DNA of 10,027 nucleotides from a virus (lineage: Duplodnaviria > Heunggongvirae > Uroviricota > Caudoviricetes). The notes beneath the pieces were generated by a model. That model saw only the letters and a program-made list of their open reading frames with translations, did not search any database and had not been told where the DNA came from. The translations under genes were made by a program, and so were the position numbers. The stretch is taken from IMG/VR virus record IMGVR_UViG_3300015186_000054. The stretch is one strand, 5' to 3'. The first letter of the stretch is position 1, and every line of letters starts with the position of its first letter. This document shows positions 1,693 through 5,304 of the stretch, piece by piece.

Positions 1693-1707
1693 TTACCCCT
1701 GAGGTAA
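1693..1707. promoter_or_regulatory. operator-like dyad TTACC-CCTGA-GGTAA overlapping the -10/+1 region and the SD of the DUF1064 gene
   Basis: Perfect 5+5 inverted repeat read directly from the sequence. Confidence 0.55.
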
Positions 1708-1738
1708 TTAAAAACCACATAAGACACGAAATCAATAG
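1707..1738 (-). promoter_or_regulatory. putative sigma70 promoter for the DUF1064 operon, paralogous to the early-left promoter
   Basis: Minus-strand reading: -35 TTGATT (plus coordinates 1735-1730), 17-bp spacer, -10 TTTAAT (1712-1707). It shares the heptamer CTATTGA at the -35 with the promoter at 4785-4791 and has identical operator geometry. Confidence 0.4.
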
Positions 1739-1753
1739 ATTTTAGAATATTTT

Positions 1754-1770
1754 ATTACCTAACGGGTAAT
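1754..1770. promoter_or_regulatory. operator-like dyad ATTACC-TAACG-GGTAAT
   Basis: Perfect 6+6 inverted repeat, identical over 18 nt to the site at 4753-4770, 19 bp upstream of the putative -35. Confidence 0.55.
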
Positions 1771-1806: not shown

Positions 1807-2583
1807 TTACTTGATAAATCCTGCCGCCTTTCCTCGCCTGTATTCCTCCATCAGCCACTGCGCCGGTGTTATTCCCCCAAGGGTGGCGGCGTTAGGCATG
1901 CACCCGAAACTTCGCCCTGGTGGATGGTAAACGTCTCTCCCTGTGTCCGGAGGCGTACTCATGGGTTCTGGCTTTGCCTGTATGCTGATCACCGGATCGG
2001 GTATCTGCTGTCCGGAAGCCACCTTTTTCGCCCAATCATCGAGCAGCCTGCGCGCGTGTTTCTCAACCTCTATCTCGCTAAGCTGGCGCTGATACATTGC
2101 ACGGCGGGTATCACATACGACCCAGTACATAACCGGATGCCGCCACGGGAATCTTTCGGGACCACCAGGATATAAACTTTTTTCCTTGCTGTACCGGTGA
2201 AACTCCGTCATCACATCGTCAATGGTAACGCCAAGAACCATCTTGCTGTCTTTACACCACTTGATGAATTGCCCTGGCGACGGCCAGAACGGAGATTCAC
2301 TGGCGCGGGCGTGGCGCATACCAGCGTTAACCTGTTCCATTGTAGTGATCCCATTCTCCAGAAACGCAAGCATCCATTGCTTACGGAATTCATTAAGTTT
2401 GTTCTGCTCCCTTATGGTCGAAACGCTTGCAGGAAATGCAGCCTGTAACTGGACAAATAGTTCATTGAAAATTCTAGCAACCTGCTCCTTTTTGCCATTG
2501 CTGTCACGCCGCTCTTCATGCACAGCAACACCATGCTCACGTAAGCGATCGTACTCATTGAGAAGTTCTGGAGTTGATTTCAT
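1807..2583 (-). CDS. P: replication protein P-like (DnaB helicase loader)
   Basis: 258-aa ORF. FPASVSTIREQNKLNEFRKQWMLAFLENGITTMEQVNAGMRHARASESPFWPSPGQFIKWC aligns almost residue for residue with lambda P as I recall it (FPASLANRDQNEVNEIRRQWVLAFRENGITTMEQVNAGMRVARRQNRPFLPSPGQFVAWC). SD AAGGGG about 8 nt upstream. Start overlaps the end of the upstream initiator gene by 29 nt. Confidence 0.9.
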   Translation of the reverse strand: MKSTPELLNEYDRLREHGVAVHEERRDSNGKKEQVARIFNELFVQLQAAFPASVSTIREQNKLNEFRKQWMLAFLENGITTMEQVNAGMRHARASESPFWPSPGQFIKWCKDSKMVLGVTIDDVMTEFHRYSKEKSLYPGGPERFPWRHPVMYWVVCDTRRAMYQRQLSEIEVEKHARRLLDDWAKKVASGQQIPDPVISIQAKPEPMSTPPDTGRDVYHPPGRSFGCMPNAATLGGITPAQWLMEEYRRGKAAGFIK

Positions 2584-3385
2584 CCCACACCCCTTCTATC
2601 CAGTCAGTGTTATTCCAGTCAAGCTCATCGCTTTTCCCGGCATTTTTTGATTTTCCCCTGATATGATTTACGTGCCTGGCGAATTTTTGTTCCCACTGAA
2701 CCTGCGTGAACACTTTGCCCTCAGCCATCCAGTAATCCCGGAATGCAGCAAGTTCAGCAGGTGTAAATTCCGGTTCCGGCAGGGCCGTTCCCCACAGCGC
2801 AGCACGCCGCCGAAAATCTGGCGACGGTAGCCAGCCATCTGTCATCGGAAATTTCCCGATGGGTTCACTCAGGCCATCCAGAAATTCAGGTTCTGCCACC
2901 TGCAACGGCGTACTGTTCGCTTCACTGGTCGGAGCACCCTCGCGCACGTGCGCTATGTGTGGGGTTTTATATATATCTTCCTCTTCCTCTTCCTCTGGTA
3001 ACTCCTTTTGTAACGCTGTTGGCGTTACTTTTTGCGTTACTCGTTTTCGATGCTCTGCCACTCTTCTATTCGTAAGTGCACGTTTTTTCGATGATTCTCC
3101 ATTGTGTCGCTCAAAGTTTGGAAGAATTAGTTTGCCGTCATGATAAGCAAGCCATCCGACGCTAATGAGGGCGTCAGCAAATCCTGTAATAAAAGCGAGT
3201 CTATCAAGTACTCCTTTTGTAACGCTGCCAGCGTTACCGTCTATTGTTTGCTGGTCAGCCCATGCCCATATACGAACCAGCTTTCCAAGAACAGCATCTG
3301 GATCAATACCCAGAATTTCTGCTATCTGAAAAATTTCAGGTTTATCAGGAGTGATAACTTCAACCTTAATCCAGCTGCTTGCCAT
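2555..3385 (-). CDS. phage replication initiator (O-like origin-binding N-terminal region, acidic linker, DnaT-like C-terminal domain)
   Basis: The track ORF 2555..3403 starts at a GTG; ATG at 3385-3383 with SD GAGGGG about 7 nt upstream is the likelier start. C-terminal GKFPMTDGWLPSPDFRRRAALWGTALPEPEFTPAELAAFRDYWMAEGKVFTQVQWEQKFAR closely matches E. coli primosomal protein DnaT as recalled ([60 protein letters not shown]). It sits directly upstream of the P-like gene and contains palindromic iterons. Confidence 0.85.
   Translation of the reverse strand: MASSWIKVEVITPDKPEIFQIAEILGIDPDAVLGKLVRIWAWADQQTIDGNAGSVTKGVLDRLAFITGFADALISVGWLAYHDGKLILPNFERHNGESSKKRALTNRRVAEHRKRVTQKVTPTALQKELPEEEEEEDIYKTPHIAHVREGAPTSEANSTPLQVAEPEFLDGLSEPIGKFPMTDGWLPSPDFRRRAALWGTALPEPEFTPAELAAFRDYWMAEGKVFTQVQWEQKFARHVNHIRGKSKNAGKSDELDWNNTDWIEGVWDEINSRTSQ
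2965..3237. repeat. putative replication origin inside the initiator gene: AT-rich tract plus palindromic iterons GTAACGC-N5-GCGTTAC
   Basis: Iteron 1 at 3010-3028 (GTAACGC TGTTG GCGTTAC) followed by an extra GCGTTAC half-site at 3034-3040. Iteron 2 at 3219-3237 (GTAACGC TGCCA GCGTTAC). An 18-nt direct repeat ACTCCTTTTGTAACGCTG occurs at 3001-3018 and 3210-3227. AT-rich TTTTATATATAT at 2965-2976. Confidence 0.5.
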
Positions 3386-3578
3386 AGGTTTCCCCTCTTG
3401 CACTCTTTAGTGCACAAGCAAATTCATTACGATGGCGGTTGGCGCTATTCATTGCACATTCAACACATGTTCCGTTCAGAACATACCTTTCAGAGAGATG
3501 GCCGTGACGGCACCGCTTTCCTGTGAAATAGCGATTTAACCCGGCTTTTGCGGCCTCCATTCTGGTTACTATCTTCAA
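3366..3578 (-). CDS. small zinc-ribbon protein (C-x-H-G-H ... C-x-x-C), occupying the CII position between Cro-like and initiator genes
   Basis: Track ORF 70 aa. The start is a TTG at 3578-3576 with SD AGGGG about 8 nt upstream; an alternative ATG at 3560-3558 has no SD. Motif KRCRHGHLSERYVLNGTCVECA suggests a Cys/His metal site. Overlaps the initiator start by about 20 nt. Function unknown. Confidence 0.45.
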   Translation of the reverse strand: MKIVTRMEAAKAGLNRYFTGKRCRHGHLSERYVLNGTCVECAMNSANRHRNEFACALKSARGETYGKQLD

Positions 3579-3656
3579 TTTTTCCGCCCCTTTTTGTTAT
3601 TGATATTGGCTATTTTGCACAATTGGAAAATTTGATCAACCAGATTTGGTTTTTTA

Positions 3657-3671
3657 TTACCTTTGAGGTAC
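3657..3671. promoter_or_regulatory. operator-like dyad TTACC-TTTGA-GGTAC (one mismatch) just downstream of the tR1-like terminator
   Basis: Dyad read from the sequence. On the minus strand it is followed after about 16 nt by TTGATC, a possible -35. Confidence 0.4.
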
Positions 3672-3679
3672 GAATAGAT

Positions 3680-3705
3680 ATGAAAAGACCGCCGGGTGGC
3701 GGTCT
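3680..3705 (-). terminator. putative intrinsic terminator after the Cro-like gene (tR1-like position)
   Basis: Minus-strand reading AGACCGCC-ACCC-GGCGGTCT then TTTCA: 7-8 bp GC-rich stem, 4-nt loop, short U-tract, 23 nt after the Cro-like stop. Confidence 0.5.
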
Positions 3706-3726
3706 ACAGAGGGGTGTGGCTGGATA

Positions 3727-3957
3727 TCATGAGTAGAAGAAGTATGCCAGTTCTGCTTTTGAGCGCAGCCATTGTCTTGTTTTACAGGCTTTAAAAAGCC
3801 CATTCATCAATACTTTACCTGGCATTTTGCGCTTACCTGTTAAGTGAGTCTGGATATAGTGACTCGTCGTTCCGGCTTCCTGTGCGAAGGCTTCACGCTC
3901 ATCCGGAGTAAGTGCAAGCCAGTGCTTTTTGAAATCGAAATGTCCGTTATCGCTCAT
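3727..3957 (-). CDS. Cro/YdaS-like HTH transcriptional regulator
   Basis: 76-aa ORF divergent from the repressor gene. LALTPDEREAFAQEAGTTSHYIQTHLTGKRKMP has the look of a Cro/CII/YdaS-type helix-turn-helix. It is the first gene of the minus-strand early operon and is followed 23 nt after its stop by a hairpin plus U-tract. Confidence 0.65.
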   Translation of the reverse strand: MSDNGHFDFKKHWLALTPDEREAFAQEAGTTSHYIQTHLTGKRKMPGKVLMNGLFKACKTRQWLRSKAELAYFFYS

Positions 3958-3993
3958 AGCTATTGCCTGATATTTATTTCAGATAATAAATAT

Positions 3994-4056
3994 TCACCCA
4001 TAAGGTAACAAAAATCAAGGATAGTTACCCATGAGGTGCATTTACCTGTTGGGTAA
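3994..4056. promoter_or_regulatory. operator triad in the divergent repressor/Cro-like intergenic region (OR analogue), with PR-like and PRM-like promoters
   Basis: Three dyads: 3994-4008 TCACC-CATAA-GGTAA (one mismatch), 4025-4039 TTACC-CATGA-GGTGC (two mismatches), 4042-4056 TTACC-TGTTG-GGTAA (perfect). On the minus strand a -35 TTGATT (4018-4013) places the first dyad inside the promoter spacer of the Cro-like gene. Confidence 0.55.
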
Positions 4057-4111
4057 TATTGCTTTAAATTGAATCATCTTCTGATTCAGATATGAGGCGA
4101 TTTTCCAGAAA

Positions 4112-4696
4112 ATGAAAAGTATCCAGGACGTCCGCAGGCAAAATCTCAACGACTTGATCGACCGTGAATTCAATGGTGTTCAGACGCGGATGGCTGAAAA
4201 ACTTGGAACTCAGGCAAATCTGGTAAACCGCTGGGCTCTTGGCAAGAAGGTTATCGGCGACCAGGTTGCACGAAAAATTGAAGCTGCCGCCAATAAACCC
4301 CGTAACTGGCTTGATATCGATCGCTCGCTTTCTCAGGAAGGTTTTCAGCCTGTCGGCCCAAGCGACATTGGCCAGCTGGCGGCTCACAACCTGGAACGCT
4401 GGATGAGCGAAAGCCGCGACCTTTCAACACAGGGAAAACTTCACCGCGCATCCGGCGTAGCCCAGGTGACAATCAGCCGCCTGTTAAACAATGAGGTCAG
4501 CGTTTCCATTTCCACCCTGGAGAATGTTGCATCCGCATTCGGGCGTCACGGCTATGAATTACTGATTCACCCGCACGACCCTGCGACCATCAACTATGAT
4601 CGCTCGCGCTACGCATTGTTACCCGAAACCGAGAAAGCAAAGATCGAAAGTTACATTGAATTTGTCATCAACCAGAACGAAAAAAACAAACAATAA
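4112..4696 (+). CDS. prophage repressor (CI analogue) with two XRE-type HTH domains and no LexA/S24 peptidase domain
   Basis: 194-aa ORF. N-terminal HTH (GVQTRMAEKLGTQANLVNRWALGKKVIGDQVARKIEAAANKPRNWLD) and a second HTH-like segment (LHRASGVAQVTISRLLNNEVSVSISTLENVASAFG). No Ser/Lys autoprotease motifs. Divergent from the Cro-like gene, weak or no SD, followed by a strong intrinsic terminator. Confidence 0.7.
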   Translation: MKSIQDVRRQNLNDLIDREFNGVQTRMAEKLGTQANLVNRWALGKKVIGDQVARKIEAAANKPRNWLDIDRSLSQEGFQPVGPSDIGQLAAHNLERWMSESRDLSTQGKLHRASGVAQVTISRLLNNEVSVSISTLENVASAFGRHGYELLIHPHDPATINYDRSRYALLPETEKAKIESYIEFVINQNEKNKQ

Positions 4697-4716
4697 AACC
4701 ATATTTTTCAGTAAGT

Positions 4717-4743
4717 AAGCCGCCTTATGGCGGCTTTTTTATT
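4717..4743 (+). terminator. rho-independent terminator downstream of the repressor gene
   Basis: Stem AAGCCGCC (4717-4724), loop TTAT, stem GGCGGCTT (4729-4736), followed by a run of T residues. Confidence 0.8.
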
Positions 4744-4752
4744 GCCTATTCG

Positions 4753-4769
4753 ATTACCTAACGGGTAAT
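4753..4769. promoter_or_regulatory. operator-like dyad ATTACC-TAACG-GGTAAT upstream of the early-left promoter
   Basis: Perfect dyad, 19 bp upstream of TTGACA. Confidence 0.55.
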
Positions 4770-4784
4770 TTTTTTAACTCATAT

Positions 4785-4816
4785 CTATTGACATCAAACC
4801 ATATACGCATAATTAT
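4785..4816 (+). promoter_or_regulatory. putative sigma70 early-left promoter (pL analogue)
   Basis: -35 TTGACA at 4788-4793 (perfect consensus), 17-bp spacer, -10 AATTAT at 4811-4816. Flanked by operator dyads 19 bp upstream of the -35 and overlapping the -10. Confidence 0.55.
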
Positions 4817-4831
4817 TACCTCAACGGTAAC
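4815..4831. promoter_or_regulatory. operator-like dyad ATTACC-TCAAC-GGTAAC overlapping the -10/+1 of the early-left promoter
   Basis: Perfect TTACC-N5-GGTAA core; its centre is 62 bp from the centre of the upstream dyad. Confidence 0.55.
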
Positions 4832-4849
4832 AGACCGAGGTAACAAGTT

Positions 4850-5002
4850 ATGCAGTGGAAAATCATCAACGGTTGGTACTGCGTTACTGCATGCGGATTC
4901 ATGAGCTGGAAGTTCCGCACCTTACAGGAAGGCATTAAGTGGGCTTTCGTCAGCAAAGAAGCTCGCGATGTGGCCAACGATAACGAGATATGGGAGGGCT
5001 GA
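4850..5002 (+). CDS. hypothetical small protein (50 aa, Trp-rich), first ORF after the leftward early promoter
   Basis: Not in the ORF track (below size cut-off). ATG 4850 with SD GAGGT 9 nt upstream; TGA at 5000-5002. Translation MQWKIINGWYCVTACGFMSWKFRTLQEGIKWAFVSKEARDVANDNEIWEG. Coding status uncertain. Confidence 0.35.
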   Translation: MQWKIINGWYCVTACGFMSWKFRTLQEGIKWAFVSKEARDVANDNEIWEG

Positions 5003-5004
5003 TA

Positions 5005-5304
5005 ATGAACGTTAATCAGCAGAAAAATCTTCAAAAAATCATGCTGGCATTCGATAAGGACTACCGCCTGTCAGAACAGCTATATGACCGACAAGTTGAA
5101 CTGATTGAGAGCATCCGACTTCATCAACTGTCCTCAACTTTCGACGTTGTAACAGGCAAAGGCGTTCGTCAGGAAGTACTGGAGGCTGCTAAAGACAGCC
5201 CTGAGTTCGAAGAACTGATGGATGCCTACCGTCGCGAGGCAATGGCAATTATCGCCCGCTGGGATCTGGCTGATCAGATTGATGGGCAGAGGGACGCGGC
5301 ATGA
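5005..5304 (+). CDS. hypothetical phage protein (99 aa)
   Basis: Track ORF 4990..5304. I prefer ATG 5005 (MNVNQQKNLQ...) because SD GGAGG lies 7 nt upstream. Its stop overlaps the ATG of the exonuclease gene (ATGA). No family recognised. Confidence 0.55.
   Translation: MNVNQQKNLQKIMLAFDKDYRLSEQLYDRQVELIESIRLHQLSSTFDVVTGKGVRQEVLEAAKDSPEFEELMDAYRREAMAIIARWDLADQIDGQRDAA

What the first reader, a model, noticed from the sequence alone, without database searches (positions are those of the whole stretch)
3958..4111. Immunity switch region: three operators between divergent repressor and Cro-like genes, with the repressor gene nearly leaderless
Dyads at 3994-4008, 4025-4039 and 4042-4056 form a graded triad (one perfect, two degenerate) like OR1-OR3 of lambda. 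The minus-strand -35 TTGATT places one operator inside the spacer of the Cro-like promoter. The repressor ATG at 4112 has no convincing SD, reminiscent of the leaderless cI mRNA from PRM.
Basis: partly seen in the sequence, partly recalled or inferred. Interest (0 to 1): 0.5.

Follow-up and report, generated by a model that had tools for sequence, protein, structure and literature searches.

The report
Repressor operator triad in epsilon15-like prophage
The three inverted repeats are real and are almost certainly binding sites for the prophage repressor between the repressor gene and a Cro-like gene, but this is the ordinary immunity switch of a known phage group (epsilon15/phiV10/SPC32H), and the idea that the repressor mRNA is nearly leaderless is not supported.

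Summary
The window is the early region of an E. coli Uetakevirus (epsilon15/phiV10-type) prophage. The three dyads are at the stated coordinates and all fit TTACC-N5-GGTAA, with 1, 2 and 0 mismatches. The window holds 5 perfect copies against 0.00 expected. All copies with at most 1 mismatch lie in intergenic, promoter-bearing gaps. The triad, with centre spacings of 30/31 and 17 bp, recurs in ten divergent phages of Escherichia, Enterobacter, Klebsiella, Salmonella and Serratia. The half-sites stay fixed while the N5 spacers drift. The epsilon15 GenBank record already labels this motif as repressor-binding. The 194-aa protein is a full-length homologue of SPC32H Rep (PDB 5D50) and is identical to the ZX5 repressor tested by overexpression. 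The divergent 76-aa protein is modelled as a five-helix lambda-repressor-type HTH. The "no convincing SD" observation holds. "Nearly leaderless" does not: the only conserved promoter-like element predicts a leader of about 36 nt. Spacing, repressor type and site hierarchy all differ from lambda OR. Verdict: a correct, ordinary call and a new member of a known kind.

The parts
3727..3957 (-). Cro-like gene. It encodes a 76-aa, five-helix lambda-repressor-type HTH protein and is the first gene of the replication-side operon (= phiV10 p41 / epsilon15 gp39).
   Evidence: ORF. PHROG 35 'transcriptional repressor', E 5.6e-13. AF2 model with pLDDT 86.6 and five helices. Foldseek hits are statistically weak but are all XRE/Cro-type HTH domains (434 repressor, YdaS NTD at TM 0.62, P22 c2). 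The HTH segment AGTTSHYIQ.HLT is invariant in 6 phages.
3994..4008 (.). Operator A (TCACC-CATAA-GGTAA, 1 mismatch). It lies in the spacer and first bases of the -10 of the minus-strand lytic promoter.
   Evidence: In every relative checked, the site at this position carries at least one mismatch.
4025..4039 (.). Operator B (TTACC-CATGA-GGTGC, 2 mismatches). It lies between the two back-to-back -35 hexamers, 31 bp from A and 17 bp from C centre to centre.
   Evidence: It is perfect in the epsilon15, SPC32H and Klebsiella phages.
4042..4056 (.). Operator C (TTACC-TGTTG-GGTAA, perfect). It overlaps the -35-like TTTACC and the spacer of the presumed repressor promoter.
   Evidence: It is perfect in all ten relatives.
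4013..4018 (-). -35 hexamer TTGATT of the lytic (PR-like) promoter.
   Evidence: It is part of the invariant block AAAAATCAA in alignment A1. It is found by the PWM scan in all 7 phages scanned.
3989..3995 (-). -10 region of the PR-like promoter (GAATAT with a 17-nt spacer, or AATATT with 18). The predicted start is near 3982-3983, giving a leader of about 25 nt to the ATG at 3957.
   Evidence: This is a prediction only.
4041..4070 (+). Presumed repressor (PRM-like) promoter: TTTACC (4041-4046), 17 nt, TTAAAT (4064-4069). The predicted start is near the invariant A at 4076.
   Evidence: This geometry is retained in all ten divergent phages, including the Serratia one. It has not been mapped experimentally.
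4070..4088 (.). Second, single-copy dyad TGAATCA-N5-TGATTCA over the predicted repressor transcription start. It is specific to one clade and its binder is unknown.
   Evidence: Within it, polymorphism falls at 4080 (in the N5) and, in one haplotype, at 4082 in the right arm.
4094..4097 (+). GAGG, the only SD-like element. It lies 14 nt before the ATG.
   Evidence: A 4097 G>A variant exists among phages with an identical Rep. The element is not conserved in the epsilon15 group.
4112..4696 (+). Repressor gene rep. It encodes 194 aa with an N-terminal HTH and an HTH-like C-terminal domain, and has no S24 peptidase domain.
   Evidence: Pfam result. PDB 5D50 SPC32H Rep at E 4e-42 over residues 1-190. 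It is 100% identical to ZX5 ORF21, whose overexpression abolished free phage and cut lysis-gene mRNA by more than 99.9% (PMC9782041).
4717..4736 (+). Intrinsic terminator after rep.
   Evidence: It is annotated in phiV10 and conserved in alignment A2.
4754..4830 (+). PL-like unit. Perfect operators at 4754-4768 and 4816-4830 lie 62 bp apart and bracket TTGACA(4788-4793)-17-AATTAT(4811-4816).
   Evidence: The equivalent sites are annotated 'protein_bind: repressor' in epsilon15.
3634..3705 (-). Terminator of the Cro-like gene (3705->3686), then a single operator (3671->3657, 1 mismatch), then the conserved -35-like TTGATC (3639->3634). Together they form a restart promoter for the replication genes.
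1693..1769 (-). Third paired-operator promoter unit. Perfect operators at 1755-1769 and 1693-1707 lie 62 bp apart and bracket TTGATT(1735->1730)-17-TTTAAT(1712->1707), upstream of the DUF1064 gene.
   Evidence: The upstream site's equivalent is annotated as a repressor site in epsilon15.

Best explanation
This is the immunity switch of an epsilon15/phiV10-type (Uetakevirus) prophage. The 194-aa Rep is an SPC32H-type repressor that cannot cleave itself. By homology it is a tetramer that binds DNA through its N-terminal HTH domains and is inactivated by an antirepressor. It recognises the dyad TTACC-N5-GGTAA. Three such dyads lie between rep and a divergent Cro-like gene. Site A fills the spacer and -10 of the lytic promoter (-35 TTGATT), so bound Rep blocks RNA polymerase there. 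Site B sits between the two back-to-back -35 hexamers. Site C overlaps the -35-like TTTACC of the presumed rep promoter, so occupancy of C should shut off rep. The same motif brackets, at a fixed 62-bp spacing, a strong PL-like promoter after the rep terminator and a third promoter after the replication genes. It also occurs once at a restart promoter after the terminator of the Cro-like gene. Rep can therefore silence every early transcription unit separately. rep is probably translated from an unstructured, AU-rich leader of about 36 nt without a functional SD, not from a leaderless mRNA. Shown here: the motif, its enrichment, its placement, its conservation, and the homology. Shown by others: the identical protein represses lytic growth when overexpressed. 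Inferred: which protein occupies which site, the transcription starts, tetramer bridging of paired sites, and whether the Cro-like protein uses the same dyads (most plausibly C).
For: Motif enrichment: 5 perfect copies against 0.00 expected, and 7 at <=1 mismatch against 0.17. All seven lie in intergenic gaps next to promoter-like or terminator elements. The triad, with spacings of 30/31 and 17 bp, is present in ten divergent phages. Across six of them, 25/30 half-site columns are invariant, against 3/15 N5 columns and 31/109 other intergenic columns (Fisher 6e-5 and 8e-8). Among 80 phages with an identical Rep, 0/30 half-site positions vary and 5/15 N5 positions vary (p = 0.002). The epsilon15 GenBank record annotates ATTACC-N5-GGTAAT as 'protein_bind: repressor' at the PL-like positions and at one site downstream of the replication genes. 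Rep matches PDB 5D50 at E 4e-42 over its full length. The recognition helix NLVNRW is invariant in six phages, matching the invariant half-site. Rep is identical to the ZX5 repressor tested by overexpression. A secondary source reports that SPC32H Rep binds palindromic sites as a tetramer. TTGATT is invariant. TTTACC-N17-TT(A/T)AAT is retained in all relatives. The leader is less structured than all 200 shuffles. Antirepressor overexpression lowered rep mRNA by 75% in ZX5, which fits a switch in which loss of Rep leads to shut-off of rep.
Against: There is no binding or transcript-mapping data for this phage. The primary SPC32H and epsilon15 papers were not available. No covariation between recognition helix and operator could be found, because the half-site is the same in every relative. 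Rep, the Cro-like protein or both could therefore be the binder. A perfect site C over the presumed rep promoter is awkward for lysogenic maintenance unless Rep occupancy is set by tetramer geometry rather than by match to consensus, or unless the rep promoter lies elsewhere. In this clade the consensus scan prefers a different minus-strand promoter, TTGTTA-17-TATTAT at 4011->3983. That promoter also overlaps site A but is not conserved in BUCT554 or the epsilon15 group.
Confidence: 0.78

Rival explanations
1. A lambda-like reading, as proposed by the first reader. The sites form a graded OR1-OR3 triad bound cooperatively by repressor dimers, and rep is expressed from a PRM-like promoter as a leaderless or nearly leaderless mRNA.
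For: Three sites of graded match lie between divergent repressor and Cro-like genes. There is no usable SD before the ATG at 4112. In the epsilon15 group, TACAAT lies 4 nt before the ATG.
Against: Centre spacings are 31 and 17 bp, not 23-24 bp. Rep has no S24 peptidase domain and is SPC32H-type. The hexamers ending 5-9 nt before 4112 are not -10-like; the best is GATTTT. Positions 4093, 4097, 4103 and 4104 are polymorphic among homoimmune phages, and the stretch is not conserved between groups. The only conserved plus-strand promoter-like element ends at 4069-4070. The best site lies over the rep promoter rather than over the lytic promoter.
Confidence: 0.1
2. The TTACC-N5-GGTAA dyads are the sites of the 76-aa Cro-like protein, or of both proteins. 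In that case the Cro-like protein prefers site C and shuts off rep, while Rep acts mainly at A/B and at the paired 62-bp sites.
For: The recognition helix of the Cro-like protein is as invariant as the half-site. Perfect site C overlaps the presumed rep promoter, which resembles Cro at OR3. rep mRNA falls when Rep is inactivated by the antirepressor.
Against: No data show DNA binding by this protein, and the fold matches are statistically weak. The epsilon15 annotation attributes the motif to the repressor. A small Cro-type protein is not known to need paired sites 62 bp apart.
Confidence: 0.35
3. The repeats are not protein operators. They could instead be chance AT-rich palindromes, small RNA hairpins, or origin or IHF elements.
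For: The intergenic region is AT-rich and holds other palindromes (3970-3993, 4070-4088). The epsilon15 record annotates an IHF site just downstream of site C.
Against: Enrichment is extreme. Conservation is specific to the half-sites while the spacers drift. The sites keep a fixed placement relative to -35 and -10 hexamers at four promoters. A 5-bp stem with a 5-nt loop is not a stable hairpin, and there are no Rfam matches.
Confidence: 0.03

Closest known systems
Rep/Ant immunity system of Salmonella phages SPC32H and epsilon15 (Uetakevirus; PDB 5D50 and 5D4Z)
   Same: Rep has the same two-domain architecture and aligns over its full length at 42% identity. The operator core TTACC-N5-GGTAA is the same. 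The triad has the same 30/31 + 17 bp spacing. Paired sites 62 bp apart occur at the PL-like promoter and at the post-replication promoter. The gene order is the same.
   Different: The Rep C-terminal domain is diverged. Site B is degenerate here but perfect in epsilon15 and SPC32H. A third PL-region site is absent here. The extra TGAATCA dyad is present only in the phiV10 clade. The antirepressor lies outside the window, and in ZX5 it is described as a Bro-N protein.
Bacteriophage lambda OR (OR1-OR2-OR3 with PR and PRM; CI and Cro)
   Same: Three dyad operators lie between divergent repressor and Cro-type genes. One overlaps the lytic promoter, one overlaps the repressor promoter and one lies between them. 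There is a second operator cluster at a PL-like promoter beyond the repressor gene. This comparison rests on my own knowledge of lambda.
   Different: The spacing is 31 and 17 bp rather than 23-24 bp. The repressor has no RecA-dependent autocleavage domain. The best-matching site is on the repressor-promoter side. No leaderless mRNA is indicated. Additional repressor-controlled restart promoters follow internal terminators, in place of N-type antitermination.
Antirepressor-controlled prophage repressors (P22 c2/Ant; Gifsy prophages; coliphage 186 Tum)
   Same: The repressor is inactivated by protein binding rather than by cleavage. This is inferred here from homology to SPC32H Rep and from the ZX5 data.
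   Different: The proteins are unrelated in sequence, and their operator motifs and layouts are different.

Membership tests
SPC32H/epsilon15-type Rep immunity region (Uetakevirus) | The repressor has an N-terminal HTH DNA-binding domain and a C-terminal HTH-like oligomerisation/Ant-binding domain, with no S24 peptidase domain. | tested here: met
   PDB 5D50 at E 4e-42 over residues 1-190, and 5D4Z (C-terminal domain) at E 4e-20. Pfam finds only HTH families.
SPC32H/epsilon15-type Rep immunity region (Uetakevirus) | The operator dyad is (A)TTACC-N5-GGTAA(T), as annotated for the epsilon15 repressor. | tested here: met
SPC32H/epsilon15-type Rep immunity region (Uetakevirus) | Conserved synteny: Cro-like gene <- triad -> rep, then a terminator, then a PL-like promoter with paired sites. 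The replication genes lie on the Cro side. | tested here: met
SPC32H/epsilon15-type Rep immunity region (Uetakevirus) | Rep physically binds these sites as a tetramer. | not testable with these tools
   Only a secondary description of SPC32H Rep was available. The primary papers are not held.
SPC32H/epsilon15-type Rep immunity region (Uetakevirus) | A cognate antirepressor gene, LexA-controlled in SPC32H. | not tested
   It lies outside the 10-kb window. The ZX5 paper reports an antirepressor, ORF4. The LexA control is recalled from my own knowledge of Kim & Ryu 2013.
Lambda-type tripartite OR switch | Three operators lie between divergent repressor and cro genes and overlap two back-to-back promoters. 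| tested here: met
   The promoters are predicted, not mapped.
Lambda-type tripartite OR switch | Operator centres are 23-24 bp apart, which allows pairwise dimer cooperativity. | tested here: not met
   The spacings are 31 and 17 bp here, and 30/31 and 17 bp in all relatives.
Lambda-type tripartite OR switch | A LexA-like (S24) autocleavable repressor. | tested here: not met
Lambda-type tripartite OR switch | A leaderless repressor mRNA from the maintenance promoter. | tested here: inconclusive
   No -10 lies at the required place, and the region is variable. The conserved promoter-like element predicts a leader of about 36 nt. There are no transcript data.
Lambda-type tripartite OR switch | The weakest site lies over the repressor promoter, so that autorepression occurs only at high repressor concentration. 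| tested here: not met
   Site C is a perfect consensus match in all relatives. Match to consensus is only a proxy for affinity.

The most novel reading that the evidence does not exclude
The Rep tetramer works by bracketing promoters. Two dyads at an invariant 62-bp centre-to-centre spacing (about six helical turns) flank two separate early promoters. In the divergent region, A and B are in phase (31 bp, three turns), while the perfect site C over the rep promoter is out of phase. One tetramer would then clamp each promoter in a micro-loop. The affinity hierarchy at the divergent region would be the reverse of lambda, with C serving the Cro-like protein or tight autoregulation. The recognition helix and half-site are frozen across phages of five host genera, and only the Ant-binding domain diversifies. 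Immunity specificity in this group would therefore reside in the antirepressor interface rather than in the operator.
Probability: 0.25. Interest if true: 0.5.

Novelty: new member of a known kind. Interest (0 to 1): 0.22.

Why it matters
This immunity region is present in 561 of 5426 complete E. coli genomes and in phages used as O157 reporter phages. A correct map of its operators and promoters is therefore useful for annotation, for engineering these phages, and for predicting cross-immunity. Public records annotate the motif only at perfect 17-bp matches, and only in epsilon15. They omit the triad in the divergent region and the paired-site units in phiV10-type phages. Conceptually it adds little: it is the expected operator set of an already characterised repressor family. 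The open points worth an experiment are the reversed site hierarchy, the fixed 62-bp pairing, and SD-less translation of rep.

Tried and rejected
1. I tried to read the primary papers that may already map these operators: Kropinski 2007 on epsilon15, Kim & Ryu 2013, and Kim et al. 2016 on SPC32H. None is held, so prior description of the triad could not be checked.
2. I looked for covariation between the recognition helix and the operator. Distant Rep homologues with NLVSRW, NLINRW or NLISRW helices still use TTACC-N5-GGTAA. The test therefore cannot distinguish which protein binds.
3. The viral-contig scan returned only phages with a 100% identical Rep. These were useful for the polymorphism test but not for diversity.
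4. The strongest consensus promoter on the minus strand, TTGTTA-17-TATTAT at 4011->3983, is absent from BUCT554 and the epsilon15 group. I therefore do not prefer it as the ancestral PR, though it may operate in this clade.
5. I considered a 7-codon upstream ORF (ATG at 4092, with its stop overlapping the rep ATG) as a translational coupler. I rejected it because 4093 T>C is polymorphic and the ORF is absent in the epsilon15 group.
6. A plus-strand PRE-like promoter at 3703-3730 lies in the terminator stem and does not look conserved on reading alignment A4.
7. The 2-mismatch motif at 3833-3847 lies inside the Cro-like gene and encodes the invariant HLTGK segment. Its conservation is explained by coding.
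8. Rfam and tRNA scans found nothing.
9. The Foldseek matches for the Cro-like model are all at E > 0.5. They show the fold class only and do not establish homology.

Full report
**Context**

The window is the early region of a temperate Uetakevirus (epsilon15/phiV10-type) prophage of E. coli. The stretch 3300-5100 is 97-99% identical to phages vB_EcoP_ZX5, TL-2011b, phiV10 and others. It occurs in 561 of 5426 complete E. coli genomes.

The gene order is as follows:
- Minus strand: Cro-like 76-aa ORF (3727-3957), 70-aa ORF (3366-3578), DnaT-like gene (2555-3403), lambda-P-like gene (1807-2583), DUF1064 gene (1345-1689).
- Plus strand: 194-aa repressor (4112-4696), small ORFs, exonuclease, RecT, AlpA-like, PerC-like and methylase genes.
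- The integrase gene lies convergent at the right end.

**Observation**

The three dyads are at the stated coordinates:
- Site A, 3994-4008: TCACC-CATAA-GGTAA, 1 mismatch to TTACC-N5-GGTAA.
- Site B, 4025-4039: TTACC-CATGA-GGTGC, 2 mismatches.
- Site C, 4042-4056: TTACC-TGTTG-GGTAA, perfect.

The motif is strongly over-represented. There are 5 perfect copies against 0.00 in shuffles, 7 at <=1 mismatch against 0.17, and 11 at <=2 mismatches against 2.85.

The other good copies lie at 4754-4768 and 4816-4830, at 1693-1707 and 1755-1769, and at 3657-3671. All are in intergenic gaps.

**The proteins**

The 194-aa protein aligns over its whole length with the repressor of Salmonella phage SPC32H (PDB 5D50, E 4e-42; C-terminal domain 5D4Z, E 4e-20). 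It has HTH domains only and no S24 peptidase domain.

It is 100% identical to ORF21 of phage ZX5. Overexpression of ORF21 abolished free phage and reduced endolysin and holin mRNA by more than 99.9% (PMC9782041).

A secondary source reports that SPC32H Rep binds palindromic sites as a tetramer and is disassembled by a tetrameric antirepressor (PMC9638917).

The 76-aa protein has no Pfam match. It hits PHROG 35 'transcriptional repressor' at E 5.6e-13. It models confidently as five helices (pLDDT 86.6). Its fold matches are individually weak (E > 0.5), but they are almost all lambda-repressor/Cro-type HTH domains: 434 repressor, YdaS N-terminal domain (TM 0.62, rmsd 2.1 A) and P22 c2. 'Cro-like' is therefore a fair label by fold and position. 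Its function is untested.

**Comparative evidence that the dyads are operators**

I compared ten divergent relatives:
- phiV10, Tyrion, BUCT554, Klebsiella BUCT711, epsilon15 and SPC32H;
- a Serratia prophage and three further enterobacterial prophages.

In every one the divergent region holds a triad with centre spacings of 30/31 and 17 bp, and site C is always perfect.

In the six-phage alignment of the intergenic region, 25 of 30 half-site columns are invariant. That compares with 3 of 15 N5 columns and 31 of 109 other columns (Fisher 6e-5 and 8e-8).

Among 80 IMG/VR phages with an identical Rep, 12 intergenic positions are polymorphic. None falls in a half-site. Five fall in the N5 spacers of A and B, and seven fall in 4080-4104 (p = 0.002 for half-site against spacer).

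The epsilon15 GenBank record annotates ATTACC-N5-GGTAAT as 'protein_bind: repressor, lysogeny' at three places after the repressor gene and one after the replication genes. It does not annotate the triad. Each triad site misses the strict 17-bp pattern by at least one base.

The Rep recognition helix (NLVNRW) is invariant in the six phages, which matches the invariant half-site. Distant homologues with NLVSRW, NLINRW or NLISRW helices still use the same motif. No specificity covariation is therefore available to tell Rep from the Cro-like protein. The HTH of the Cro-like protein is equally invariant.

**Promoters**

On the minus strand, the block AAAAATCAA (TTGATTTTT on the coding strand, -35 at 4018->4013) is invariant in the six aligned phages. 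In all seven phages scanned it pairs with a -10-like hexamer at 16-18 nt. It puts site A 4 nt after the -35, filling the spacer and touching the -10.

The higher-scoring TTGTTA-17-TATTAT (4011->3983) is confined to part of this clade. It also overlaps site A.

On the plus strand, the only element kept in all ten phages is TTTACC (4041-4046, inside site C), 17 nt, then TT(A/T)AAT (4064-4069). It predicts a start near the invariant A at 4076 and a leader of about 36 nt.

Relative to that start, the centres of C, B and A lie near -27, -44 and -75. Relative to the lytic start (about 3982), they lie near -67, -50 and -19. The topology therefore resembles lambda OR. A covers the lytic promoter, C covers the repressor promoter and B lies between them.

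**Leaderless claim**

GAGG at 4094-4097 lies 14 nt before the ATG. It varies among homoimmune phages (4097 G>A) and is not conserved in the epsilon15 group. The absence of a convincing SD is therefore real.

Nothing, however, points to a start at or near 4112. No -10-like hexamer ends 5-9 nt upstream. The stretch 4080-4104 is the most variable part of the region.

The predicted leader plus early coding region is less structured than all 200 shuffles (z = +2.06). This fits SD-independent initiation on an open, AU-rich leader. Without 5'-end data the point remains inconclusive but disfavoured.

**Wider regulon**

After the rep terminator (4717-4736), two perfect sites 62 bp apart bracket an invariant CTATTGACA and an ATTAT -10. 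The last T of that -10 is the first T of the downstream site.

The same layout recurs upstream of the DUF1064 gene, after the terminator of the replication genes: site, 19 nt, -35, 17 nt, -10 fused to a site, again 62 bp centre to centre.

A single site followed by the conserved GGTTGATC sits just after the terminator of the Cro-like gene.

The 62-bp spacing (63 in one case for each unit) is kept in nine of the ten phages, while the intervening sequence diverges. With a tetrameric Rep, this suggests one tetramer clamping both sites. That is an inference.

**How it most likely works**

In the lysogen, Rep occupies A (with B). It also occupies the paired sites at the PL-like and downstream promoters. 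This silences each early transcription unit.

Induction is by an antirepressor encoded outside the window, not by cleavage. This rests on homology and on the ZX5 data.

When Rep is removed, the PR-like promoter makes the Cro-like protein. rep mRNA fell by 75% when the antirepressor was overexpressed in ZX5. This argues that rep is then shut off or loses activation, rather than simply being derepressed. The Cro-like protein acting at the perfect site C is the obvious candidate. This step is untested.

**Comparison and novelty**

The region is a member of the SPC32H/epsilon15 Rep immunity family. It shares the protein architecture, operator motif, site layout and synteny. Binding and the antirepressor could not be tested here.

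It works like lambda OR in topology only. It fails lambda's defining features of operator spacing, a cleavable repressor and a weak site over the maintenance promoter.

The operator motif is already in a public annotation. The triad and the paired-site units are not annotated in any record I saw. I could not check whether the primary papers describe them.

I rate it a new member of a known kind, of low to moderate interest.

Noticed in passing
window 4070-4088: A perfect single-copy dyad, TGAATCA-TCTTC-TGATTCA, lies over the predicted rep transcription start. It is perfect with a different N5 in related prophages (L090/L091), has an N6 spacer in L089, is degenerate in Tyrion and BUCT554, and is absent from the epsilon15, Klebsiella and Serratia clades. 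Its binder is unknown. It does not behave like a compensated RNA hairpin.
   Followed up: partly
window 4754-4830: A PL-like unit. Two perfect operators 62 bp apart bracket an invariant TTGACA -35 and an AATTAT -10, directly after the rep terminator (4717-4736). The unit drives the conserved 50-aa ORF at 4850-5002 (PHROG 898) and the exo/RecT genes.
   Followed up: yes
window 1693-1769: A third repressor-controlled promoter unit on the minus strand has the same site-19-(-35)-17-(-10)-site geometry and 62-bp spacing. It follows the terminator of the replication genes. The downstream operator also supplies the SD (GAGGT/GGGGT) of the DUF1064 gene.
   Followed up: yes
window 3634-3705: The terminator after the Cro-like gene is followed by a single 1-mismatch operator and a conserved TTGATC -35-like hexamer. 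In some relatives a degenerate downstream half-site remains. Early transcription seems to be re-initiated at repressor-controlled promoters after each terminator, rather than by antitermination.
   Followed up: partly
Rep and Cro-like proteins across L001-L006, L087-L091: The operator half-site, the Rep recognition helix and the HTH of the Cro-like protein are essentially frozen across phages of Escherichia, Enterobacter, Klebsiella, Salmonella and Serratia. The Rep C-terminal (Ant-binding/tetramerisation) domain falls to about 40-45% identity. This is unlike lambdoid phages, where operator specificity diversifies.
   Followed up: partly
window 3833-3847: A 2-mismatch copy of the motif (TTACCTGTTAAGTGA) lies inside the Cro-like gene and is conserved in relatives. 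It encodes the invariant HLTGK of the HTH, so coding constraint explains it.
   Followed up: yes
window 3970-3993: A perfect 9-bp AT-only inverted repeat (ATATTTATT/AATAAATAT, with a 6-nt gap) spans the -10 and start region of the lytic promoter. It is clade-specific and its changes in Tyrion are not compensated.
   Followed up: partly
window ~3320-3396: The ZX5 paper reports one tRNA at a position that maps to about here, across the junction of the 70-aa ORF and the DnaT-like gene. ARAGORN finds no tRNA anywhere in the window, so that annotation is probably a false positive.
   Followed up: yes
window 3366-3578: A 70-aa protein with a TTG start occupies the lambda cII position. It contains a CxH...CxxC zinc-ribbon-like motif and matches PHROG 1081 (unknown function). 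It has no similarity to CII.
   Followed up: no
window ~3634: There is a mosaic boundary here. phiV10, PAS61 and several other phages match only to the right of about 3634. ZX5, TL-2011b and HEMP4 match across it.
   Followed up: no
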